In this document: positions 7,691 to 48,949 of the stretch, one piece after another
How positions within the stretch are numbered: position 1 is the stretch's first letter
How the letters are laid out: each line of letters starts with the position of its first letter
Source: a virus
Virus record (IMG/VR): IMGVR_UViG_3300043172_001413
Direction: 5' to 3' (one strand)
Length of the DNA stretch: 64,000 bases
Translations under genes and position numbers: made by a program
Notes under the pieces: model-generated
Seen by the model: the letters and a program-made list of their open reading frames with translations, nothing else
Databases searched by the model: none
Told to the model about the DNA's origin: nothing

Positions 7691-7946
7691 AGAAACATGC
7701 CTTTTTAAAGTAAATAACTGTTCATGAATAAAGAAATATCGATAGATTATTAGAATAAACTGTTGAAAAAGGTATTTAATTTATAAAATAATAATTTATT
7801 TTGATTTTGTGAAAATAAAAAATATATTAATACGTAGTCATGTTTAAGGAGGACAAAATGACATAGATTAAAATAAGACCACCGTAATAATTATACTCTT
7901 ACAGTATTGACTAACTAATTTTTTAACAATTATCAGGAGTATAATT

Positions 7947-8231
7947 ATGAGTATGAAAGAAGAGTTAAAATCAGAAGCAGCAGCTATAAGAAAGAATAAC
8001 CTAGAAACAAAGCGTCTTCAGAAAAACGGCGAGTATGCCGGTAACCTGCAATTTTCCCGTATTTCCTTAAAGAAGAATTTCCGTCATAAGCATATTGCTT
8101 ATTGTATGCTTGCAGGGAAAACTTACAAACAAATTGAACCCAAATGTGCTGAGAACAATAAACCCGATATGACTCGGATTAAGGAGCTTATGGATGAGTA
8201 CGCCAAAGAAAATGTATGTGTTAGTGCGTAA
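7947..8231 (+). CDS. hypothetical protein
   Basis: 94-aa ORF with upstream AGGAG. Confidence 0.4.
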   Translation: MSMKEELKSEAAAIRKNNLETKRLQKNGEYAGNLQFSRISLKKNFRHKHIAYCMLAGKTYKQIEPKCAENNKPDMTRIKELMDEYAKENVCVSA

Positions 8232-8505
8232 AGACCTTGATAAGGTCTACGGCGGAGTACAAGCCGGCCATGCACTGACGGCGTACTCCTTAAAGGGTGA
8301 TCAAGGCCTCTTTTATGAATGGGGAAACAGTGATCTTATTTATCTGGGTGTCCCCAATGAGAATGTCCTGAATTTATGGACAGAGAAACTAACTGCTATG
8401 AAGAAAGCTTGGGTAGGGTTCTGGGAACCCGATCTTCAGAATCAGTTAACGGCAGTTGCATGTATTAGTCCGGAAGAGACGTTTAAAAAGTTGAGATGCT
8501 ATTAA
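8194..8505 (+). CDS. peptidyl-tRNA hydrolase, PTH2-like
   Basis: MYVLVRKDLDKVYGGVQAGHALTAY parallels PTH2 [25 protein letters not shown]; C-terminal TAVACISPEE parallels TVLAIGPGP; sits immediately 5' of tRNA cluster. Confidence 0.55.
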   Translation: MSTPKKMYVLVRKDLDKVYGGVQAGHALTAYSLKGDQGLFYEWGNSDLIYLGVPNENVLNLWTEKLTAMKKAWVGFWEPDLQNQLTAVACISPEETFKKLRCY

Positions 8506-8512
8506 AATTAAT

Positions 8513-8707
8513 CGGCGGGTAGCTCAGTTTGGAAGAGTACCAACTCGATTATCTTGAACACGGAGGTTACGGCGGTCTGCAGACTAAAGTGGTTTAAGTT
8601 TCTTGATATATCGACATGGAAGAGTGAAAAGTCCGCTACCGGAGTGGGCCGGAAACAATTCTGTGAACCTGTTGGGAGTCGGAGGTTCGATTCCTTCACC
8701 GCCGACC
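8513..8707 (+). tRNA. tRNA-like gene with about 119-nt insertion in anticodon loop (putative intron); isotype undetermined
   Basis: Acceptor CGGCGGG/ACCGCCG, D-arm GCTCAGTTTGGAAGAGT, anticodon stem CCAAC(8540-8544)/GTTGG(8671-8675), T-arm GGAGGTTCGATTCCTTC, discriminator A then CC. Confidence 0.5.
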
Positions 8708-8760
8708 GATTTAAAAAATGAATAATTTGATAAGGATGTTTGTATAATGTATATGAATAC

Positions 8761-8992
8761 CGGCGAGTAGCTCAGCCCTGGTAGAGCACCGGTACCGATA
8801 CCTGGGGTATGGAGACCATGGATGTTTGCAAGCTGAAATGGTTGAGATATTTTAGGAACCTCGGCAGTGTAAGAGGAGAGAAGCAGGACGGGTTCAAAAT
8901 GATTCATGAATTGTTCTGAACGAGGTCGTTTCTCGAATTAATAAGCTGAAACATACCGGAGGTCGCGTGGTTCAAATCCCGCCTCGCCGACC
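8761..8992 (+). tRNA. tRNA-like gene with about 154-nt insertion in anticodon loop (putative intron); isotype undetermined
   Basis: Acceptor CGGCGAG/CTCGCCG perfect, D-arm GCTCAGCCCTGGTAGAGC, anticodon stem CCGGT/ACCGG, T-arm GCG(T)GGTTCAAATCCCGC with one bulge, discriminator A + CC. Confidence 0.5.
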
Positions 8993-9004
8993 GTTTTAAA
9001 AGGA

Positions 9005-9445
9005 ATGATCATGAAAGTATATGAACCATCAGTACGTAGGAAATTTAAACCCTTCCAGATAAGATGGAATGAGGCTCTTGGTGAGCCAGGTAATCCGTAT
9101 CTATATCGATGGACGTTTCTATTCTTTAATTATTCGATACGGATCCATCACTGGGTAAGATCGGATGATAAGAGATTCTTTCATGATCATTCCTGTGATC
9201 TCACTTCCATTATATTAAAAGGTAGTTATACCAATGTCACGCCAGATGGCCGGTTCGATGTAAAAGCTGGTTCTGTCTGGCATGCTAAAGCAGATAAAAG
9301 GCACTATCTGGATATTCCGAAGGAAGGAGCCTGGACATTATTGCTGTGTAGCCGGCCTTACCGGAAGTGGGGATTCTGGGTAAAACCTGATAAGATGTTA
9401 AGGCCCTTGGCTTATTTTCATAAATATGGAGAAGTAAACGAATAA
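9005..9445 (+). CDS. hypothetical protein (His-rich HHW...FHDH motif)
   Basis: 146-aa ORF between tRNAs. Confidence 0.45.
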   Translation: MIMKVYEPSVRRKFKPFQIRWNEALGEPGNPYLYRWTFLFFNYSIRIHHWVRSDDKRFFHDHSCDLTSIILKGSYTNVTPDGRFDVKAGSVWHAKADKRHYLDIPKEGAWTLLLCSRPYRKWGFWVKPDKMLRPLAYFHKYGEVNE

Positions 9446-9448
9446 TAT

Positions 9449-9522
9449 GCGCCCGTAAGCTCAGTTGGTAGAGCGGCGGCCTCTATTTCCGCTGGTCGGG
9501 GGTTCGATTCCCTCCGGGCGTT
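9449..9522 (+). tRNA. tRNA with anticodon CUA (amber-suppressor-like)
   Basis: GCGCCCG acceptor (G1-U72 wobble), D-arm GCTCAGTTGGTAGAGC, anticodon stem GCGGC/TCCGC, loop CTCTATT giving 34-36 = CTA, T-arm GGGGGTTCGATTCCCTC; followed by T-run. Confidence 0.55.
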
Positions 9523-9525
9523 CTT

Positions 9526-9668
9526 TATTTTTCTCGTAATTCTTCTGATAATTCGACTGCTAGGTTTACAGCATCGGCATTGCCTTCTTCGCTGTACATG
9601 TAATCTATCTGTTTAAGAATATCTTCTACAGAAACATATTCAACGTTTTCAACAATTATTTTTCTCAT
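9526..9668 (-). CDS. possible small acidic protein (47 aa)
   Basis: ATG-initiated ORF MRKIIVENVEYVSVEDILKQIDYMYSEEGNADAVNLAVELSEELREK in convergent gap; weak RBS. Confidence 0.2.
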
Positions 9669-9704: not shown

Positions 9705-10751
9705 TTAAAGGAAAACTTTTTGAATATCATGTCTTTTATTCATGCAGTTTGACATGAAAACATTACAGTCATAATGATTTACTATCGCATTACGATAAAA
9801 CAGAGCGGTTTTTGCATCAATGGGTTTAAAACTGTGGCAATCAACGCCTACGTTCAATCCATTTTCTTTGACCATTTGGAGTTTATGGATATGGCCAAAT
9901 AAAAAGAAATCTATCCCTTCACCTTCTTCAGGTGCGTGGATTAAACGGAAAGCAATATTCTCTAACATAAGCAGAAAGTTATTTTTTATGATAATGACTC
10001 TGCTGTCCTCTTCAAGTTTTGTTATAGTAGGTTCTTTGTCGTAGTTGCCTGGTAAAATGTAAACACGTTCTCCTTTTAAATGTTGGAGCATTTTAGGATT
10101 ACCGAAATCTCCTAAATGGTACACTGTGTCTTTATCGGTTACAAGGGCATTCCACTGTTTTACCATCTCCCAGTCCATTTCTTCTACAGAAGAAAAGGGT
10201 CGTTTGGATAACTGTAATGTTCTTTCCTCTCCAAAATGCGTGTCGGAAGTGATAAAGACATTCATTACCGGGCCAGTTAGCTCTCTCAATTTAGTGAGAG
10301 CGTTATCGATACAGACAGAAAGAGTCTCAGCCCATGATATCTCTGACCTTTTACATCTTTCTTTAATGTACCTGAGATGTGGAGAATCAGAAGGGGCACC
10401 TACTGCTATTTTCCCGGAATTTAGCCACTCACCAAATTCAATATTAGTAGTAAAAGCTGGAAGAATCTCATTTCTTGGTATCCAGAACAGGATCACTTTA
10501 GAAATGCTCATAGCTTTTCTTTCCCAGTCTACCTGTCGGCTGTATGTCCAGTCTTCCGGTTGGCAATCGTCAGGGTATTCTGGGATGTAAACCACACCAT
10601 CGAATTCTTTCTCTTCTAACATTGTAAGAGCAGAGTGTCTCCATCCTTTAGGAACTATACCCCCTTTTGCAACTCTGTATGTAGGTCCTGCTAAGTAGAT
10701 AGAATCAGTACTTTCTTCCACCATTTTATCTAAAACATAACTTTTTAACAT
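9705..10751 (-). CDS. fusion protein: N-terminal nucleoside 2-deoxyribosyltransferase/DNPH1-like domain (tentative) + C-terminal calcineurin-like metallophosphoesterase
   Basis: N-terminal SIYLAGP motif; C-terminal MPP motifs SDTHFGE, GDFGN, GNYD, GHIH. Confidence 0.55.
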   Translation of the reverse strand: MLKSYVLDKMVEESTDSIYLAGPTYRVAKGGIVPKGWRHSALTMLEEKEFDGVVYIPEYPDDCQPEDWTYSRQVDWERKAMSISKVILFWIPRNEILPAFTTNIEFGEWLNSGKIAVGAPSDSPHLRYIKERCKRSEISWAETLSVCIDNALTKLRELTGPVMNVFITSDTHFGEERTLQLSKRPFSSVEEMDWEMVKQWNALVTDKDTVYHLGDFGNPKMLQHLKGERVYILPGNYDKEPTITKLEEDSRVIIIKNNFLLMLENIAFRLIHAPEEGEGIDFFLFGHIHKLQMVKENGLNVGVDCHSFKPIDAKTALFYRNAIVNHYDCNVFMSNCMNKRHDIQKVFL

Positions 10752-12206: not shown

Positions 12207-12770
12207 TTAGTTTCTCCTGAATGTATGAAATCCAAAGACGGCAACTTTTGGCTTTTTGTAAAAGAACTGCTCATCTATGAAATGGACTTTATCAGCATAC
12301 ATTTCAAGAGCAGTGTTATAACATTCCTTAAAACTCCATATTTCCACTTTTTTCTTTTTCTGTTTAAGATATTTGCACAGGTCTGCAAAATCACCGTCCC
12401 CTGACATCAGTATCCATTTATTGAAAGTGTTTATTCTATCCATGCAGTCTACGGTAATATTGACATCATGATTTGAATTCTGATATATCGTTTTTTTTGT
12501 ACTTGTGGATACATCCCACTTCGTGAATTTGGTGACATTTTTTGCTTTGATGTCATATCCGATAGTTTTTAATTTTGCTTCAAATTTTGTGCTGTCAAAA
12601 TCCGCTCCTCTGACCAGATAAATAGAGGCAGCAGTTAGTATCTCTGTTTCGCGGTCACTGAAGAAGTGCCATACTTTATCAAAGTCTATTTTCTGTCCCT
12701 GATTTCTCGCTTCAAAGAATAGGTTTTGAAGATCAATTTGCATGTATGTTGCTGCGTGATAATCACTCAT
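12207..12770 (-). CDS. NYN/LabA-like (PIN-fold) nuclease domain protein
   Basis: IDLQNLF, VDCMD and SGDGDF motifs of NYN domain. Confidence 0.55.
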   Translation of the reverse strand: MSDYHAATYMQIDLQNLFFEARNQGQKIDFDKVWHFFSDRETEILTAASIYLVRGADFDSTKFEAKLKTIGYDIKAKNVTKFTKWDVSTSTKKTIYQNSNHDVNITVDCMDRINTFNKWILMSGDGDFADLCKYLKQKKKKVEIWSFKECYNTALEMYADKVHFIDEQFFYKKPKVAVFGFHTFRRN

Positions 12771-29582: not shown

Positions 29583-29849
29583 GTGGAGGAGGTTCAAAAA
29601 GAGATGCCTATGAACAATGATGTTATGGGAGTCTTTATTAAATTTGGTGAATCTATTCAGACCTCCTTCACGGGTCTAAAGTCTCCGGGCAGGATCTGGG
29701 AAACCGCCTTTAATGGATCATCCCGGGTTGCAAAACCGGAAACTGGTAAGAAATACCCATATCAGAAAGTTGAAGAAGAAAAACCTAAAAAAGAACCAGA
29801 AAGACCTGTGTTTAATCGGTACAGAGCTTTGATTGATAAAAATGAATAG
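29583..29849 (+). CDS. hypothetical protein (TAG stop)
   Basis: 88-aa ORF, GGAGG RBS. Confidence 0.45.
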   Translation: MEEVQKEMPMNNDVMGVFIKFGESIQTSFTGLKSPGRIWETAFNGSSRVAKPETGKKYPYQKVEEEKPKKEPERPVFNRYRALIDKNE

Positions 29850-31827: not shown

Positions 31828-32307
31828 ATGGGTAATTATCGACAACTTTATTTTGGTCCGTATATGCGGATCTGGATGCCGGAAGTAACGGTCAGTGTTC
31901 CCTCACAGACATGTACAAACGAGGACTGTAAGAAACATGGGGAGTATATCCGTCATAAATTCTGTTCTTATTGTGGCTCCCCGGTGGAGAGAATAAACAT
32001 TGAAAAGCCCTCTCATTTAAACCTGCATCAATTTCTGTTAGAAGAATTTAATGATGAGGACATGTTTACAGCTGTTTATCCGGATAATGTTGATCATATC
32101 ATTGCTGTCCCGAACCGCCGTGACCGTCAGGGTGGTACTCGTTTTCAGGATAACTCTGAGACAGAAATTCTGGTACTCTCAGGTAATCTGGAGGAGCAGT
32201 ACATGGCTGATTTTGATAGGGAGGACTGGGAGAGATTGGAAGGAGCTTTGATGGATCGGGATATAAAATATGAGAAATTAACCGGTGTGCTTCAGTGGTT
32301 TAGTTAG
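31828..32307 (+). CDS. zinc-ribbon protein (TAG stop)
   Basis: CTNEDC...CSYCG. Confidence 0.45.
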   Translation: MGNYRQLYFGPYMRIWMPEVTVSVPSQTCTNEDCKKHGEYIRHKFCSYCGSPVERINIEKPSHLNLHQFLLEEFNDEDMFTAVYPDNVDHIIAVPNRRDRQGGTRFQDNSETEILVLSGNLEEQYMADFDREDWERLEGALMDRDIKYEKLTGVLQWFS

Positions 32308-32315
32308 GAGGCTTT

Positions 32316-32552
32316 ATGAAATGCCAGAAGTGTGAGTCGGAACGGCTCTGTTATATCTGTTCAAAGAGCAGTGACCTCAATAACGGCGTGGTGGTAGGGA
32401 CAGAATTTGATGGGTATGTTCCGGATGATATTGGAATAGGTGGTGGGGATTATGTTGATTTTACATGGTGTCTGGAATGTGGCCAGATCCAGGGGCAATT
32501 TCCTTTAGAGACACCTGAGAAATACATTGTTGAGCCGGAAGAACTTGTATAG
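32316..32552 (+). CDS. small zinc-ribbon protein (TAG stop)
   Basis: CQKC...CYIC...CLEC. Confidence 0.45.
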   Translation: MKCQKCESERLCYICSKSSDLNNGVVVGTEFDGYVPDDIGIGGGDYVDFTWCLECGQIQGQFPLETPEKYIVEPEELV

Positions 32553-46146: not shown

Positions 46147-47562
46147 GTGCATTTTAAGAAATTTGTACTTTTTTTAGGGGCAATAAAAATTAAACTAGCA
46201 GAAAAATATCGACCGACGAAGTTTGAGGATGTCATCGGCCAGGATTCGGTTATGTGTGTCCTTAAAGCCTCCGTGAAACAGAATCGTTACGGTTCTGCTT
46301 ATCTCTTTTGTGGTCCCTTCGGGGACGGTAAAACTACACTAGCCCGTATCTTTGCTAAAGCTGTCCTCTGTGAATCCCCTATAGATGGTGAACCCTGTTG
46401 TGAGTGTGAGTCATGCCAGTTGTTTGAAGAAGAACGTCATTTCAGCTATAGAGAAATTGATGCTGCATCTTATGGCGGTAAGGATGATATGGTAAGTCTG
46501 CGTGATGATGCCTCTTCCTTAGCTGTTTCAAAAAAGAAAATTATTTGTATTGATGAAAGCCATGATATCTCTAAACAGGGACAGGATGCGCTTCTTAAGC
46601 AAACAGAGGAATGCCCTGATCATCTTATATATGAATTCTGTACAACAGACCCTGATAAGATGAGTAGCACTCTTCGTGACCGGTTCATGGAATTTCATGT
46701 GGTCAAAGTGAGTGCAGAACTCATAAGTCAACGATTAAGAACTATTTGTGAAAGAGAAGGAATTGTTTATCAAGAAGATGCCCTTCAGGTCATAGCAGAG
46801 AGATCAGAAGGGCATGTTCGTTCTGCCATAAATCTCGTAGAAGAAATAGCCTATCTGGGTGAAATATCTCTGGAGAATCTTAATAAAGTTTCCAAGGATT
46901 TTGAGGAACATTTATTTACAATAGTTTCAAACTTGGGAATCAGTCTGCCAAAAATTATAGAAACGTATCAATCTATTTCTTCCTTTTTATCTCCATTTGA
47001 ATTTTATAATTTATTGCTTTCATTATTGAGTGATGCAACAAAATTTTTATTTGGTTATGATGGTTTTTCTGAGAAGAGAAAAGATTTATTGTCAAAATTA
47101 AAAGAAATACATGGTTATAGTTTAGCTGAATTTTTAAATTACCTGATTACACGGGATAAATTCGTGGAAAAGGTAGGATTACAAAGTGACTTAATTATTT
47201 TGCACTATAAATTTTGTGCAAATAATTTTGCCCCTCGGATACAAAAAGAACCCTCTACAAACTCACAAATTCAAACTGTTTCAAAAAGTGATCCATCTAA
47301 TTCCCCTTTTTCCTATGCTGAGTTATCGAAATTAAGTATTAAAGATCGGAACCAGTTACTCCGAGAGGAGAGGAAAAAACATCAAAAAACCGGGGAAAAG
47401 GAAAAATCAGAAATAGTGCCCACAAAATGGCCCTTACCAAAAGAAGAGAGACCGGGGAATAATTTTGAAGAAAAGAGCATGTCGGCCAAGGAATTCTCTC
47501 AAAAATTGGTAGGAGGGCGTGTTGGTGAAGTCAGATCGGTGGTTGATTCTCGAACTGGATGA
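46147..47562 (+). CDS. dnaX: DNA polymerase III tau/gamma clamp-loader subunit (DnaX)
   Basis: YRPTKFEDVIGQ, GPFGDGKTT, CCECESC zinc module, EIDAAS; no ATG, start likely GTG 46147 or ATT 46189. Confidence 0.75.
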   Translation: MHFKKFVLFLGAIKIKLAEKYRPTKFEDVIGQDSVMCVLKASVKQNRYGSAYLFCGPFGDGKTTLARIFAKAVLCESPIDGEPCCECESCQLFEEERHFSYREIDAASYGGKDDMVSLRDDASSLAVSKKKIICIDESHDISKQGQDALLKQTEECPDHLIYEFCTTDPDKMSSTLRDRFMEFHVVKVSAELISQRLRTICEREGIVYQEDALQVIAERSEGHVRSAINLVEEIAYLGEISLENLNKVSKDFEEHLFTIVSNLGISLPKIIETYQSISSFLSPFEFYNLLLSLLSDATKFLFGYDGFSEKRKDLLSKLKEIHGYSLAEFLNYLITRDKFVEKVGLQSDLIILHYKFCANNFAPRIQKEPSTNSQIQTVSKSDPSNSPFSYAELSKLSIKDRNQLLREERKKHQKTGEKEKSEIVPTKWPLPKEERPGNNFEEKSMSAKEFSQKLVGGRVGEVRSVVDSRTG

Positions 47563-48031
47563 TGCATTCGAGGACGTTAGTTACCGAGATATCAAAGTTG
47601 CACTTGTTACAGTATTTGGTGAGGGAGTTGATTATTTCATTCCTATTCATCATGAGTCTATGGGATCATATACGAGTACCAGTGTTTTGATAGAAGGTTA
47701 TGTATTTATAAAAGATTGTTTGGAGGCTCGTCAGGGTATAAATAATTTACATGAAAGTAGAGTTTTTTCAGGGGCTCTTTTTTATTCAGGAAAATATCAG
47801 ACTGTTAATTCAGAAATAATAAAGAACCTCAAAAGGAAATTAAGAAATTCATTAAAGAAAAAAATGACAAACGGAACAAAAGTGTTGATTCTCGGAGGTA
47901 TTTTTAAAAATTTAACCGGTGAAGTAATAGGGATCGAAGATAACGGCAAAAAAATTATGGTGAAAATAAAAAGAATATCTAGGGAAATCATAGCTCCTAT
48001 TCCTTCTACGCTTTTGAAAGAAGTGAAATAG
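47519..48031 (+). CDS. NusG-like KOW-domain transcription factor
   Basis: KOW-like GTKVLILGGIFKNLTGEVIGI; GTG start with AGGAGGG RBS. Confidence 0.45.
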   Translation: MLVKSDRWLILELDDAFEDVSYRDIKVALVTVFGEGVDYFIPIHHESMGSYTSTSVLIEGYVFIKDCLEARQGINNLHESRVFSGALFYSGKYQTVNSEIIKNLKRKLRNSLKKKMTNGTKVLILGGIFKNLTGEVIGIEDNGKKIMVKIKRISREIIAPIPSTLLKEVK

Positions 48032-48949
48032 ATGGACCATATCATTATAGATGGCTTTGGCCTGGTTTTCCGCTCTCATTTTGCTTTCAGTTCTCTTCAG
48101 ACCAGTACTGGGCTCCTTTCGGGTTGCATCTTCGGTTTCTTGGTCAGTGCTCGGACTATAAAGAAAAGATTTCCTCATTGCCATGTGACGATTGCCTGGG
48201 ACAATGATCCTGTGCGCCGGAAGAAAGTGTTTGCCGGCTATAAAGCGAATCGTTCTCGTCTGGGTATTTATGAACAGATAGATGATTTAAAAGAAATTTT
48301 TTCAAACCTGAATGTATCACAGTCAGAATATATAGGAGAAGAGGCTGATGATGTTATAGCTTCTCTGATAAAATGCTATGACGGTCAGATTTACATATAT
48401 AGTTCAGATAAAGATATGTTTCAATTAGTGAAAGATGGCCGTGTAATTGTGATCCGGCCGAAGAGGGGAAGGTATGAAGAAAGATATTTTGATGAAGAAG
48501 CTGTGAAAGAAGCGTTCAAAGTCAGTTCTGAAAATTTTGTCTGCTTCCAGTGCTTCCGAGGAGATAAAGTTGATAGTGTTCCAGGCGTGCCGCGCCTTCC
48601 TTCCGACCTCATAGCCAGACTATCTGAGAAATATAAAACCCCGCAGAATATTTACGACAATCTTGACGAAGAAAAATTAACCGAATTCCAGCGTACCTCC
48701 TTACTGGAATGTAGGGATCAAGTATTGTTAAATGACCAGTTGGTGAAGTTACGTAACGATTTAGATCTGGAGATTATGACAGGAAAACCTAATGCTGAAG
48801 CTTTGGTTCCCCTTTTTGATAAATATGATATCAATTCTTTAAAATCCAATTCCTATGTAGAGGTTTTTATAGATGAGCCGTCTTTTACCGCAAGGAAAGC
48901 TCCTGCACTCGTTGTGAGTTACCCTTCTTTATTTGAGGGAGAAAATTAG
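48032..48949 (+). CDS. 5'-3' exonuclease / flap endonuclease
   Basis: N-terminal IIIDGFGLVFRSHFAF and acidic metal-binding clusters. Confidence 0.65.
   Translation: MDHIIIDGFGLVFRSHFAFSSLQTSTGLLSGCIFGFLVSARTIKKRFPHCHVTIAWDNDPVRRKKVFAGYKANRSRLGIYEQIDDLKEIFSNLNVSQSEYIGEEADDVIASLIKCYDGQIYIYSSDKDMFQLVKDGRVIVIRPKRGRYEERYFDEEAVKEAFKVSSENFVCFQCFRGDKVDSVPGVPRLPSDLIARLSEKYKTPQNIYDNLDEEKLTEFQRTSLLECRDQVLLNDQLVKLRNDLDLEIMTGKPNAEALVPLFDKYDINSLKSNSYVEVFIDEPSFTARKAPALVVSYPSLFEGEN

What the first reader, a model, noticed from the sequence alone, without database searches (positions are those of the whole stretch)
8194..9530. tRNA island: two tRNA-like genes with large anticodon-loop insertions, an amber-suppressor-like tRNA(CUA), and an adjacent PTH2-like hydrolase
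Three tRNA-shaped genes sit in a short plus-strand island inside the minus-strand block. Two of them (8513-8707 and 8761-8992) have canonical acceptor, D and T arms, but their anticodon stem halves are separated by about 119 and 154 nt. That is too short for typical group I introns (about 200 nt or more), and bacteria lack a tRNA-splicing endonuclease, so these could be a compact self-splicing element or disrupted genes. The third gene (9449-9522) folds as a standard tRNA whose 7-nt loop CTCTATT puts CUA at positions 34-36, so it would read UAG. Several genes in the window stop at TAG (29583-29849, 31828-32307, 32316-32552), which makes a suppressor consequential. A PTH2-like peptidyl-tRNA hydrolase lies directly upstream and a phosphoesterase fusion directly downstream, which suggests a translation-manipulation or tRNA-repair module.
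Basis: partly seen in the sequence, partly recalled or inferred. Interest (0 to 1): 0.8.

Follow-up and report, generated by a model that had tools for sequence, protein, structure and literature searches.

The report
Phage tRNA-like genes with giant loops
Two of the three tRNA-shaped genes belong to a conserved, unannotated family of giant-phage tRNA(Val)-like RNAs whose anticodon loop is swollen by a folded 120-160-base domain and which almost always sit beside one small metal-binding (cupin) protein gene, so they look like a dedicated RNA-protein module rather than broken or classically intron-split tRNA genes; the third is a real amber-suppressor-type tRNA.

Summary
8513-8707 and 8761-8992 have full acceptor, D and T arms, and a 5-bp anticodon stem whose halves lie 126 and 161 nt apart. 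9449-9522 is a tRNA with anticodon CUA. The inserts are not group I introns or any Rfam ribozyme, and the genes are not pseudogenes.

Related jumbo-phage contigs hold about 50 homologues. Two cultured phages carry them unannotated. They share C1-G72, A73, a covarying anticodon stem and an invariant A-C at tRNA positions 35-36, which are the valine identity nucleotides. U33 is not conserved. The loop ranges from 6 to 207 nt. Relatives with 8-10-nt loops occupy the same genomic spot.

Large inserts fold into covarying helices. Their hairpin loops carry 6-nt palindromes in 31 of 50 inserts, against about 3 in shuffles. An RsmD-like methyltransferase, a T4 Rnl1-type RNA ligase, a PTH2-like protein or a tRNA(CUA) often lies alongside.

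Best reading: a non-decoding tRNA(Val)-like RNA that works with the cupin, probably unspliced. Protein-mediated excision is not excluded. The window uses the standard code, so the suppressor's target is unknown.

The parts
7947..8231 (+). First ORF of the plus-strand island (94 aa, no family). It overlaps the next ORF by 38 nt.
   Evidence: ORF list. No Pfam/PHROG/NCBIfam hit. Homologues lie upstream of the PTH2-like gene in L131, L117, L112 and L109. Promoter-like sites at 7763-7897.
8194..8505 (+). PTH2-like small hydrolase (103 aa); the assignment is weak.
   Evidence: Pfam PTH2 E=0.009 and 16.6 bits, below the cut-off of 23. phrog_3668 'hydrolase' 2.8e-12. PDB 1rlk (Ta0108) E=0.36, sharing KKMxxxVRKDLD...Q.aHA. 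Homologues lie 1-3 kb upstream of the cupin in about 8 other loci.
8513..8707 (+). t1: tRNA(Val)-like RNA gene with a 126-nt anticodon loop. Acceptor 8513-8519/8698-8704, A73 at 8705, T arm 8681-8697.
   Evidence: ARAGORN -i; model R1 45.2 bits; parse and coordinates.
8540..8544 (+). t1 anticodon stem, 5' strand (CCAAC). It pairs with 8671-8675 (GTTGG).
   Evidence: The homologous stem covaries in the family.
8545..8614 (+). t1 insert, helix A: nested stems with the 10-nt palindrome GTCTGCAGAC (8575-8584) at the apex.
   Evidence: Fold. Alignment with t2 and L089 shows pair-preserving changes, GGTTAC/GTGGTT against GACCAT/ATGGTT.
8615..8665 (+). t1 insert, helix B (CATGGAA...TTCTGTG).
   Evidence: Folds.
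8666..8670 (+). t1 3' junction AACCT, at tRNA positions 34-38. A35 and C36 are the family-invariant dinucleotide.
   Evidence: Family statistic: A 45/49 and C 44/49.
8761..8992 (+). t2: second tRNA(Val)-like RNA gene, with a 161-nt anticodon loop. Anticodon stem 8789-8793/8955-8959. It ends 12 nt before the cupin ORF.
   Evidence: ARAGORN -i -ps90; model R1 58.8 bits; parse.
8794..8954 (+). t2 insert: helix A (apex GTTTGCAAGC, 8824-8833), helix B (apex palindrome ATTCATGAAT, 8902-8911), then 3' junction AACAT (8950-8954).
   Evidence: Folds. Homology to t1 and to L089 111-296. Coordinates.
9005..9445 (+). Conserved partner gene: a 146-aa metal-binding cupin (phrog_4786, annotated 'cysteine dioxygenase'). 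H60, H62 and H100 are the presumed metal ligands (H100 invariant; H60 and H62 invariant in A2, >=90% in A5).
   Evidence: phrog_4786 4.8e-27. Alignments A2 and A5. 433 homologues, all metagenomic, with no Pfam domain. AlphaFold2 pLDDT 91, with generic small cupins as best PDB matches. Adjacency to the RNA family.
9449..9522 (+). t3: tRNA with anticodon CUA (9483-9485), starting 3 nt after the cupin stop. A T-rich tail follows.
   Evidence: ARAGORN; Rfam tRNA 50.2 bits. A tRNA(CUA) lies shortly (9-82 nt) after the cupin in L145, L117, L131 and L106 too. Terminator-like tail.
9705..10751 (-). Context gene: nucleoside-2-deoxyribosyltransferase-like domain fused to a metallophosphoesterase, convergent with the island.
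   Evidence: Pfam Nuc_deoxyri_tr2 7.4e-9 and Metallophos_2 8.9e-12. Conserved next to the cupin only in the closest relatives, L145 and L111.

Best explanation
t1 and t2 are two paralogous genes of a conserved jumbo-phage family of non-canonical tRNA(Val)-like RNAs.

Shown:
- The RNA keeps a full tRNA body (acceptor, D and T arms, usually C1-G72 and A73), plus the anticodon stem.
- It keeps the last five loop nucleotides, N-A-C-N-N. A35, C36 and A73 are the known valine identity set.
- The 5' side of the anticodon loop is free to vary. It ranges from 1 nt to about 200 nt.
- Large expansions fold into a covarying multi-helix domain. Its hairpin loops display 6-nt self-complementary sequences.
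- The RNA genes are nearly always adjacent to the cupin gene.

Inferred:
- The RNA is matured at its ends like a tRNA, by RNase P and 3' trimming/CCA addition.
- The insert stays in the mature RNA.
- The molecule does not decode on the ribosome.
- Its tRNA body plus A35-C36-A73 lets it be bound by a tRNA-recognising protein. Valyl-tRNA synthetase (possibly charging it), the co-encoded cupin, the methyltransferase and the ligase are the candidates.
- The palindromic loops let two copies pair loop-to-loop.
- It works together with the cupin encoded at 9005-9445, with which t2 and t3 form one tight transcription unit.

t3 is a separate, genuine amber-suppressor-type tRNA that travels with the same cassette. 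What it suppresses is unknown, because this window is read in the standard code.
For: Family and linkage:
- Searches with the cupin returned 23, 65 and 80 loci.
- Interrupted or expanded-loop tRNA-like genes lie 2-30 nt upstream, or about 57-136 nt downstream, on the same strand in most loci that have enough flank.

Structure:
- In a 13-sequence subfamily, 93% of cells pair against about 40% when partners are slid.
- 34 of 42 pairs show compensatory changes, and 0 of 500 shuffles reach this. This includes the split anticodon stem and three insert helices.

Identity nucleotides, in 49 model hits chosen without using the loop:
- A at position 35 in 45/49, and C at position 36 in 44/49.
- N34 is A 32, U 9, G 5, C 3.
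- U33 is present in only 8/49, and a purine at position 37 in 34/49.

Loop continuum:
- Loop lengths run 6, 7, 9, 10, 12 ... 57-207 nt.
- Short-loop members sit at the same spot next to the cupin. Examples are CAUAAACAA, AAUGUACAU and UCUUAACAA.
- The shared function therefore cannot need a canonical 7-nt loop or splicing.

Not the phage's decoding tRNA-Val:
- L051 has a canonical tRNA-Val(UAC) with G1-C72 and loop UUUACAA.
- It also has the cupin-adjacent C1-G72 RNA with loop AUGUACAU.

Palindromic loops:
- 31 of 50 inserts have a perfect 6-nt palindrome inside a predicted hairpin loop, typically G-NNNNNN-A. Shuffles give 3.2 +/- 1.6, maximum 7.
- The hexamer differs between lineages: UUCGAA, UUGCAA, UACGUA, UCUAGA, UGAUCA, GUUAAC and others. 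Palindromy is kept by paired changes.
- t1 carries GUCUGCAGAC. t2 carries GUUUGCAAGC and AUUCAUGAAU.

No known RNA family:
- Rfam finds only 'tRNA' in these regions.
- A genuine group I intron in another tRNA of L071 scores 70 bits.

Operon packing: t2 ends 12 nt before the cupin ORF, and t3 starts 3 nt after its stop.
Against: - No transcript data exist, so retention of the insert is inferred, not shown.
- About a fifth of members have a perfect U33-NAC-R37 3' junction. Examples are the Paraglaciecola phage (UGACAA) and L013/L143 (CUUACAU). Those look like a true tRNA-Val split at 32/33.
- CcrColossus copies end UGAAGA (Phe-like), so the A35-C36 rule is not universal.
- Insert presence flips between close relatives. 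Cupins 75-80% identical have loops of 9, 10, 85, 114 and 117 nt. Mobile introns also show this pattern.
- A T4 Rnl1-type RNA ligase, which seals anticodon-loop nicks, and phosphatases/phosphoesterases sit next to the module in several lineages. That fits a cut-and-rejoin pathway.
- In t1 and t2 the palindromes can also fold as small hairpins with a UGCA tetraloop.
- Whole-molecule folding energies are not exceptional: z = -1.0 and -1.9.
- The cupin has no known RNA-related function. Its fold matches are generic.
Confidence: 0.5

Rival explanations
1. Protein-spliced pre-tRNAs. The insert is an intron removed by proteins, not by itself. A structure-specific endonuclease cuts at the base of the insert. 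In the P0-type members this could be RNase P plus a 3' end nuclease acting on the acceptor-like P0 helix stacked on the T-arm-like hairpin B. The ends are then healed by a phosphoesterase and sealed by an Rnl1-type RNA ligase. The product is a short tRNA(Val)-like RNA of the kind encoded directly in relatives.
For: - Rnl1-type ligase (PF09511, 4.8e-16) directly follows the cupin in L119 and L123.
- RNA ligase gp191 plus phosphatase gp192 precede the RNA gene in Paraglaciecola GD virus 1.
- A metallophosphoesterase fusion and an NYN nuclease-domain protein lie within 4 kb in the window.
- Uninterrupted alleles occupy the same site in close relatives.
- Some 3' junctions are canonical, U33-NAC-R37.
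- Megaphage tRNAs are reported to 'contain introns' (PMC8346664; PMC13037316).
Against: - No endonuclease is identified.
- No bulge-helix-bulge motif is present.
- Junction nucleotides other than A-C are not conserved.
- t1 and t2 lack the outer helix P0.
- No ligase homologue is found in this 64-kb window.
- The spliced product would still lack U33 (t1 UC/UG-AAC-CU, t2 AC/GA-AAC-AU), so splicing would not rescue decoding.
- Conserved palindromic loops are not explained by a disposable intron.
Confidence: 0.25
2. A new, very small self-splicing or self-cleaving ribozyme class lodged in the anticodon loop.
For: - The inserts have a conserved covarying architecture.
- They sit at one fixed site in a tRNA, as group I introns do (PMC13011429).
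- Their distribution among close relatives is sporadic.
- There is a weak twister-sister-like hit next to one family member: L090 1861-1968, 22.6 bits, below the gathering score.
Against: - No Rfam intron or ribozyme matches, even at E<=10 in a 1.2-kb search or in 37 related loci.
- The three-way junctions have almost no unpaired conserved nucleotides that could form a catalytic core.
- Insert sizes run continuously down to a few nucleotides.
- No conserved U at the 5' junction or G at the 3' junction.
Confidence: 0.08
3. Degenerate (deleted) group I introns that rely on a full-length intron or host factors in trans.
For: - Genuine group I introns occur in tRNA genes of the same phage group: L071 1718-1941, 70.1 bits.
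- One member (L079) contains a GCAGAGAC string resembling the group I R element.
Against: - RF00028 gives no hit on any insert.
- There is no P3-P9 core.
- The helices that do covary are unrelated to group I topology.
Confidence: 0.03
4. Pseudogenes: tRNA genes broken by insertion of junk or a MITE-like element, or an assembly artefact.
For: - Standard tRNA finders miss t1 and t2.
- The folding z-scores are unremarkable.
Against: - The same sequence is found on an independent JGI contig.
- About 50 homologues keep both halves of the acceptor and anticodon stems, with compensatory changes across 45-80% protein-level divergence.
- There are no terminal inverted repeats or target duplications.
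- The position next to the cupin is conserved.
Confidence: 0.02

Closest known systems
Group I introns in bacterial and phage tRNA anticodon loops (cyanobacterial tRNA-Leu, Azoarcus tRNA-Ile, Patescibacteria tRNA-Asn/Asp; Rfam RF00028)
   Same: A structured insertion at a fixed site in the anticodon loop of an otherwise intact tRNA gene. Such genes are missed by standard tRNA finders. Genuine examples occur in the same phage group (L071).
   Different: The inserts are 34-207 nt, against roughly 200 nt or more. There is no RF00028 match. No U / omega-G junction rule is met. The site is 5' of position 33/34 and has variable length. The helices are unrelated to P1-P9. Removal would not give a canonical loop.
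'Introns' reported in megaphage/jumbo-phage tRNA genes (Lak phages, PMC8346664; jumbo phage survey, PMC13037316)
   Same: Huge environmental phages with tRNA genes that need intron-tolerant search modes, accompanied by suppressor tRNAs.
   Different: Those reports rest on tRNAscan-SE calls and give no structure, family or partner gene. Some of those calls are said to contain another tRNA. Here the inserts form one covarying family tied to a cupin gene, and the phage is not recoded in the sequence seen.
Phage T4 species 1 and species 2 RNAs (rnaC, rnaD)
   Same: Small stable RNAs of about 120-140 nt, encoded inside a phage tRNA gene cluster. They have tRNA-like 3' parts (T arm and acceptor-like end in rnaC), and their function is still unknown (annotation and sequence; the background is from my own knowledge).
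   Different: T4 rnaC lacks a D arm and a split anticodon stem. No cupin partner is present. No alignment beyond a 13-nt identity with t2 (ATGGTTGAGATAT), which may be chance.
tmRNA
   Same: The topology matches: acceptor 5' strand, then a long internal structured domain, then T arm and acceptor 3' strand. It is a tRNA mimic that is charged but does not decode by an anticodon.
   Different: There is no G3.U70 alanine identity, no tag reading frame and no pseudoknot series. A full D arm and anticodon stem are kept. Rfam tmRNA does not match, whereas a real phage tmRNA in L083 scores 100 bits.
Valylatable tRNA-like structures of plant tymoviruses (TYMV TLS)
   Same: A viral tRNA mimic that presents valine identity nucleotides (an A-C in an anticodon-like loop, plus the discriminator) without acting as a decoder. 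This is from my own knowledge.
   Different: The TLS is the 3' end of an RNA genome with a pseudoknotted acceptor. Here the genes are free-standing in DNA phages and have an ordinary acceptor stem. Charging is untested.
Kissing-loop dimerisation or multimerisation RNAs (HIV-1 DIS hairpin, phi29 pRNA, ROOL/GOLLD assemblies)
   Same: Hairpin loops of 8-9 nt with a 6-nt self-complementary core flanked by purines. The core sequence varies between lineages but stays palindromic. Several are phage-encoded and lie near tRNA genes (from my own knowledge).
   Different: There is no sequence or architectural homology. Dimerisation here is inferred from sequence only.
YrlA / bacterial Y RNA-like RNAs (RF02553)
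   Same: A non-coding RNA with a tRNA-like module used as a protein-binding handle.
   Different: YrlA is circularly permuted relative to a tRNA. The only Rfam hit (18.3 bits against a gathering score of 69) spans the T arm of t1 and the D arm of t2 and is an artefact.

Membership tests
Canonical elongator tRNA (t1, t2) | Cloverleaf: 7-bp acceptor, D arm, 5-bp anticodon stem, T arm with a UUCRAnU loop | tested here: met
   Manual parse and ARAGORN -i. t1 has one G.A in the acceptor, and t2 has a one-base bulge in the T stem.
Canonical elongator tRNA (t1, t2) | 7-nt anticodon loop with U33 and purine 37 | tested here: not met
   The loops are 126 and 161 nt. The nucleotides before the 3' strand are UG-AAC-CU (t1) and GA-AAC-AU (t2). 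In the family, U33 occurs in 8/49.
tRNA-Val identity set (E. coli-type ValRS) | A35, C36 and discriminator A73 | tested here: met
   Both t1 and t2 have them. In the family, A is 45/49 and C is 44/49; A73 was the selection criterion. The identity rule itself comes from my own knowledge.
tRNA-Val identity set (E. coli-type ValRS) | Actual aminoacylation with valine | not testable with these tools
   Needs a charging assay.
Group I intron (RF00028) | Match to the covariance model / P3-P9 catalytic core | tested here: not met
   No hit at E<=10 on 8400-9600, nor on 37 related loci. Positive control: L071 at 70.1 bits.
Group I intron (RF00028) | 5' exon ends in U and the intron ends in G, at a position that restores a canonical loop | tested here: not met
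   No consistent U/G junction across 30 members. The rule is as stated in PMC13011429.
Archaeal/eukaryal protein-spliced tRNA intron | Bulge-helix-bulge motif (two 3-nt bulges separated by 4 bp), usually at 37/38 | tested here: not met
   Inspection of folds and of the subfamily consensus. There are 0-2 nt on the 5' side, 5-7 nt on the 3' side, and the insert lies 5' of position 33/34.
Known self-cleaving ribozymes (hammerhead, twister, twister-sister, pistol, hatchet, HDV-like) | Rfam covariance-model match | tested here: not met
   None in the window region. There is one sub-threshold twister-sister hit beside, not inside, a relative.
tmRNA | Rfam RF00023 match, G3.U70, tag ORF | tested here: not met
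   No match. Position 3:70 is G-C.
Amber suppressor tRNA (t3) | tRNA fold with anticodon CUA at 34-36 | tested here: met
   ARAGORN; Rfam alignment at 50.2 bits with loop CUCUAUU.
Amber suppressor tRNA (t3) | In-frame TAG codons that need reading (recoded genes) | tested here: not met
   The standard code gives 91% ORF coverage, and reading TAG as sense adds 1.5%. The only long TAG read-through joins a NusG-like gene and a flap-endonuclease gene. The rest of the roughly 512-kb genome was not available.
PTH2 peptidyl-tRNA hydrolase (ORF 8194-8505) | Pfam PF01981 at or above the gathering score | tested here: inconclusive
   16.6 bits against a cut-off of 23, E=0.009. There is a weak PDB match to Ta0108. 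No structure prediction was run.
Cysteine dioxygenase (ORF 9005-9445, as annotated in phage records) | Membership of the CDO_I family / specific structural match to CDO | tested here: not met
   No Pfam or NCBIfam hit. No PDB sequence hit with a profile. Foldseek best matches are generic small cupins (TM1459, DddK, KdgF) at TM about 0.55. Only the cupin fold and a His-x-His...His pattern are shown.
Kissing-loop (DIS-like) dimerising RNA | Hairpin loop carrying a 6-nt self-complementary core whose palindromy is kept through sequence change | tested here: met
   31/50 inserts against 3.2 +/- 1.6 in shuffles, with 14 different hexamers. In t1 and t2 the palindromes are present but can also fold on themselves.
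Kissing-loop (DIS-like) dimerising RNA | Dimer formation | not testable with these tools
   Needs native gels or SEC with loop mutants.

The most novel reading that the evidence does not exclude
A previously unrecognised class of phage non-coding RNA. It has a tRNA(Val) body that is charged or bound through A35-C36-A73 but never decodes. Its anticodon loop has been turned into a docking platform whose palindromic loops join two or more copies. It serves as cofactor, substrate or scaffold for a dedicated, phage-specific metal-cupin enzyme, with a methyltransferase, an Rnl1 ligase and a PTH2-like hydrolase as accessory parts. In short, it would be a tRNA-dependent, non-ribosomal phage pathway.
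Probability: 0.25. Interest if true: 0.85.

Novelty: new variant of a known kind. Interest (0 to 1): 0.72.

Why it matters
- Giant phages are known to carry many tRNAs and 'intron-containing' tRNAs. These have been treated as translation supplements.
- This finding shows that at least one recurrent set is something else. It is a family of tRNA-shaped RNAs that cannot decode in the usual way. They are under strong structural selection and are genetically tied to one uncharacterised phage-specific protein.
- That gives a concrete, testable entry point into non-translational uses of tRNA mimicry by DNA phages. Options include charging-dependent chemistry, decoys for tRNA-targeting defences, and RNA assemblies.
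- It also flags unannotated RNA genes in two cultured phages, Caulobacter phage CcrColossus and Paraglaciecola Antarctic GD virus 1, where experiments are feasible.
- It warns that 'tRNA with intron' calls in megaphage genomes should not be read as ordinary spliced tRNAs.

Tried and rejected
- Group I intron and all Rfam families: no match to the inserts.
- The YrlA hit is an artefact that joins the T arm of t1 to the D arm of t2.
- A DNA pattern from the t1/t2 shared hairpin found nothing in IMG/VR. A pattern from the 3' half found only two contigs already in hand.
- blastn against GenBank phages matched only the t3 region, to ordinary tRNA genes.
- I tried to place splice junctions that would restore a canonical loop, using a U-ending 5' exon, a G-ending intron, ARAGORN's Phe/Ile proposals, and fixed 32/33 or 33/34 sites. 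None is consistent across members.
- Box C/D or k-turn reading of GAUGAUGA...CUGA in some members: the geometry does not fit, and it is not conserved.
- T-loop reading of the GUUCGAAA apex: variants such as UACGUA break the T-loop rule but keep palindromy.
- TAG recoding: rejected for this window and for related loci. The stop inside the L005 match is a TGA upstream of the true start.
- The in-frame TAG between 47519-48031 and 48032-48949 separates two distinct genes, NusG-like and FEN.
- T4 rnaC/rnaD homology: the alignment is uninformative.
- Model R1 scores t1 and t2 through the tRNA scaffold only. It also hits ordinary tRNAs, so it is not family-specific.
It was redone with database sequences.
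- The relaxed regex scan is too noisy, so I used the model-hit set for statistics.

Full report
**1. What is in the window**

The plus-strand island runs from about 7900 to 9525 inside a minus-strand block. It holds six features, in this order:
- a 94-aa ORF (7947-8231);
- a 103-aa PTH2-like ORF (8194-8505);
- t1 (8513-8707);
- t2 (8761-8992);
- a 146-aa ORF (9005-9445);
- t3 (9449-9522), followed by a T-rich tail.

Default ARAGORN and Rfam see only t3. It is a tRNA with anticodon CUA, scoring 50.2 bits. It has a C31xU39 mismatch and U at position 37.

ARAGORN in intron mode recovers t1 at the default threshold. It recovers t2 only at a relaxed one.

By direct parsing, both t1 and t2 have complete acceptor, D and T arms and a perfect 5-bp anticodon stem. 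The stem halves are 126 and 161 nt apart.

The two inserts are homologous in their 5' halves and show pair-preserving differences. Each fold gives the same layout:
- the anticodon stem;
- helix A, starting 0-1 nt after the 5' strand;
- helix B;
- a 5-nt single strand (AACCT in t1, AACAT in t2);
- the 3' strand.

**2. What the inserts are not**

- A permissive Rfam scan of 8400-9600 (E<=10) gives no intron or ribozyme family.
- Scans of 37 related loci give the same result.
- As a positive control, a true group I intron in a different tRNA of locus L071 scores 70 bits.
- No choice of splice sites gives a canonical loop. Both t1 and t2 lack U33, and t1 has C37.
- There is no bulge-helix-bulge motif.

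**3. The family and its partner gene**

The window comes from a very large phage. Its 146-aa protein occurs on a contig of 512 kb. An identical copy of the locus is on an independent JGI contig.

Searching with the 146-aa protein returned 23 and 65 IMG/VR loci and 80 of 313 metagenome loci. Many are from contigs of 200-675 kb.

In these loci a tRNA-like gene with a split or expanded anticodon loop lies on the same strand. It sits either 2-30 nt upstream of the protein gene or about 57-136 nt downstream.

The protein:
- is 58-88% identical among the close relatives (42-57% in the most distant loci recovered), with conserved H60, H62 and H100;
- has no Pfam or NCBIfam family;
- models confidently as a small cupin, with pLDDT 91 and only generic cupin neighbours;
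- is essentially absent from 185,579 species genomes, with four MAG contigs only.

Phage records annotate it as 'cysteine dioxygenase'. That name is not supported beyond the fold.

**4. Structure is under selection**

I aligned a homogeneous subfamily of 13 sequences with inserts of 80-94 nt. RNAalifold and explicit pair counting give:
- 93% paired cells, against about 40% when partners are slid;
- 34 of 42 pairs with compensatory changes;
- 0 of 500 shuffles as good.

The supported helices are the acceptor, D and T stems, the split anticodon stem, an outer insert helix P0, a long helix A and a hairpin B. This rules out pseudogenes and artefacts.

**5. The conserved loop signature**

I took covariance-model hits that have C1-G72 and A73. 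This criterion does not use the loop. It gave 49 RNAs. The two nucleotides at tRNA positions 35 and 36 are A (45/49) and C (44/49).

| Position | Composition |
|---|---|
| 33 | U in only 8/49 |
| 34 | A 32, U 9, G 5, C 3 |
| 37 | purine in 34/49 |

A35, C36 and A73 are the classical valine identity set (my own knowledge). A34 is not a normal bacterial valine wobble base.

Loop length is a continuum from 6 to 207 nt. Members with 6-13-nt loops occupy the same position beside the cupin in close relatives, for example CAUAAACAA, AAUGUACAU and UCUUAACAA.

In L051 a canonical tRNA-Val(UAC) coexists with the cupin-adjacent RNA. The canonical one has G1-C72 and loop UUUACAA. The cupin-adjacent one has C1-G72 and loop AUGUACAU.

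The shared function therefore does not require a canonical anticodon loop. The family is not the phage's decoding tRNA-Val.

**6. Palindromic loops**

- In 31 of 50 inserts, a predicted hairpin loop (typically G-NNNNNN-A) holds a perfect 6-nt palindrome. Shuffled inserts give 3.2 +/- 1.6.
- The hexamer differs between lineages: UUCGAA, UUGCAA, UACGUA, UCUAGA, UGAUCA, GUUAAC, AGUACU, UGCGCA, CAUAUG and others. Self-complementarity is kept by paired substitutions.
- A 6-nt palindrome cannot pair within an 8-nt loop. The simplest reading is loop-loop pairing between two copies.
- t1 carries GUCUGCAGAC (8575-8584). t2 carries GUUUGCAAGC (8824-8833) and AUUCAUGAAU (8902-8911).
- In t1 and t2 these can also fold as small hairpins, so the inference is weaker for the window itself.

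**7. Neighbourhood**

Besides the cupin, these genes recur:

| Gene | Where |
|---|---|
| RsmD-like methyltransferase, between the RNA gene and the cupin | about 10 lineages, including Caulobacter phage CcrColossus |
| T4 Rnl1-type RNA ligase | directly after the cupin in L119 and L123; with a phosphatase before the RNA gene in Paraglaciecola Antarctic GD virus 1 |
| PTH2-like protein | about 8 lineages |
| tRNA(CUA) shortly after the cupin | L145, L117, L131, L106 |

The window's metallophosphoesterase fusion is conserved only in its closest relatives.

The two cultured phages carry unannotated family members:
- MW805361 113999-114125;
- NC_019406 241461-241736 and 241749-241997.

The CcrColossus copies end UGAAGA rather than NACNN. 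Distant members may therefore mimic another identity.

**8. Interpretation**

Shown:
- t1 and t2 belong to a conserved, structured family of non-canonical tRNA(Val)-like RNAs linked to a cupin gene.
- They are not group I introns, not known ribozymes and not pseudogenes.

Inferred, at about 50%:
- The insert is a lineage-variable expansion that stays in the RNA.
- The RNA is end-processed like a tRNA and recognised through its tRNA body and A35-C36-A73.
- It may pair through its palindromic loops.
- It acts with the cupin in a non-decoding role.

The main rival, at about 25%, is protein-mediated excision and religation. The neighbouring Rnl1-type ligases and phosphoesterases, the uninterrupted alleles and the minority of canonical 3' junctions favour it. 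Even then the product would be a non-canonical, expanded-loop tRNA-like RNA.

A new self-splicing ribozyme (about 8%) and a degenerate group I intron (about 3%) have no positive support.

**9. The suppressor**

t3 is a genuine tRNA(CUA) that travels with the cassette. The window itself is decoded by the standard code:
- ORF coverage is 91% with the standard code, and reading TAG as sense adds little.
- TAG ends 12 of about 87 real ORFs, with read-through tails of 1-19 codons.
- The single long read-through joins a NusG-like gene and a flap endonuclease gene, which are separate genes.

Related loci show no TAG recoding either. Suppressor tRNAs without detectable recoding have been noted in Lak megaphages (PMC8346664). 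Recoding of late genes elsewhere in the roughly 512-kb genome cannot be excluded.

**10. Comparison and novelty**

Intron-like insertions in megaphage tRNA genes have been mentioned but not analysed (PMC8346664; PMC13037316).

The nearest concepts are:
- group I tRNA introns;
- T4 species 1/2 RNAs, which sit in the T4 tRNA cluster and have unknown function;
- tmRNA;
- tymoviral valylatable tRNA-like structures;
- kissing-loop RNAs.

None fits as a family. I file this as a new variant of a known kind (a viral tRNA mimic), with a moderately high interest score. The family is widespread and under strong selection. It has a fixed protein partner and can be tested directly in cultured phages.

Noticed in passing
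window 47519-48031 and 48032-48949: A NusG-like (KOW) gene ends in TAG, and the next gene (5'-3' exonuclease/FEN) starts in the same frame at the next codon. Amber read-through would fuse them into a protein of about 476 aa. Domain analysis says they are two separate genes.
   Followed up: yes
L071 1699-1968 (IMGVR_UViG_3300024262_000414): A genuine group I intron (Rfam 70.1 bits, 1718-1941) interrupts a tRNA gene in a related phage. Its 3' exon has a UAA anticodon-like loop. It served as a positive control.
   Followed up: partly
L083 3536-3943 (IMGVR_UViG_3300032007_000256): A phage-encoded tmRNA (Rfam 100.4 bits) lies in the same tRNA-rich region, just downstream of the cupin gene. The same locus has four more tRNA genes with 49-108-nt insertions of other identities (Ile GAU, Pro UGG-like).
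   Followed up: partly
L090 1861-1968: A sub-threshold twister-sister ribozyme hit (22.6 bits against a gathering score of 34, E=0.71) lies about 45 nt upstream of that locus's short-loop family member.
   Followed up: no
L058 1835-1867: A DUF805b RNA motif scores above the gathering score (40.3 bits), about 120 nt upstream of an interrupted tRNA-like gene.
   Followed up: no
window 8832-8844 versus T4 rnaC (NC_000866 70908-71046): There is a 13-nt identity (ATGGTTGAGATAT) between t2 helix A and T4 species 1 RNA. The global alignment is uninformative, so this may be chance.
   Followed up: partly
L001 3591-3665 and 3741-3815; L005, L006, L007, L009: Several tRNA genes in related phages have 6- or 8-nt anticodon loops (ARAGORN 'tRNA-???' with 2- or 4-base anticodons). 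There are also multiple tRNA(CUA) copies. Odd tRNAs cluster around the cupin gene.
   Followed up: no
window 12207-12770 (-): A 187-aa NYN-domain (PIN-like RNase) protein lies 2.7 kb from the island. It is not conserved next to the cupin in other loci.
   Followed up: partly
window 8708-8760: The spacer between t1 and t2 contains TGTATAAT, an extended -10-like element. t2, the cupin and t3 may therefore have their own promoter. The consensus scan did not list it.
   Followed up: no
L176 2430-2960 (Paraglaciecola Antarctic GD virus 1, record 114734-115264): Three further T-arm-like GGTTCRAnTCC motifs lie downstream of the cupin gene, in a stretch annotated only with a 53-aa hypothetical ORF. 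These may be more unannotated tRNA-like genes.
   Followed up: no
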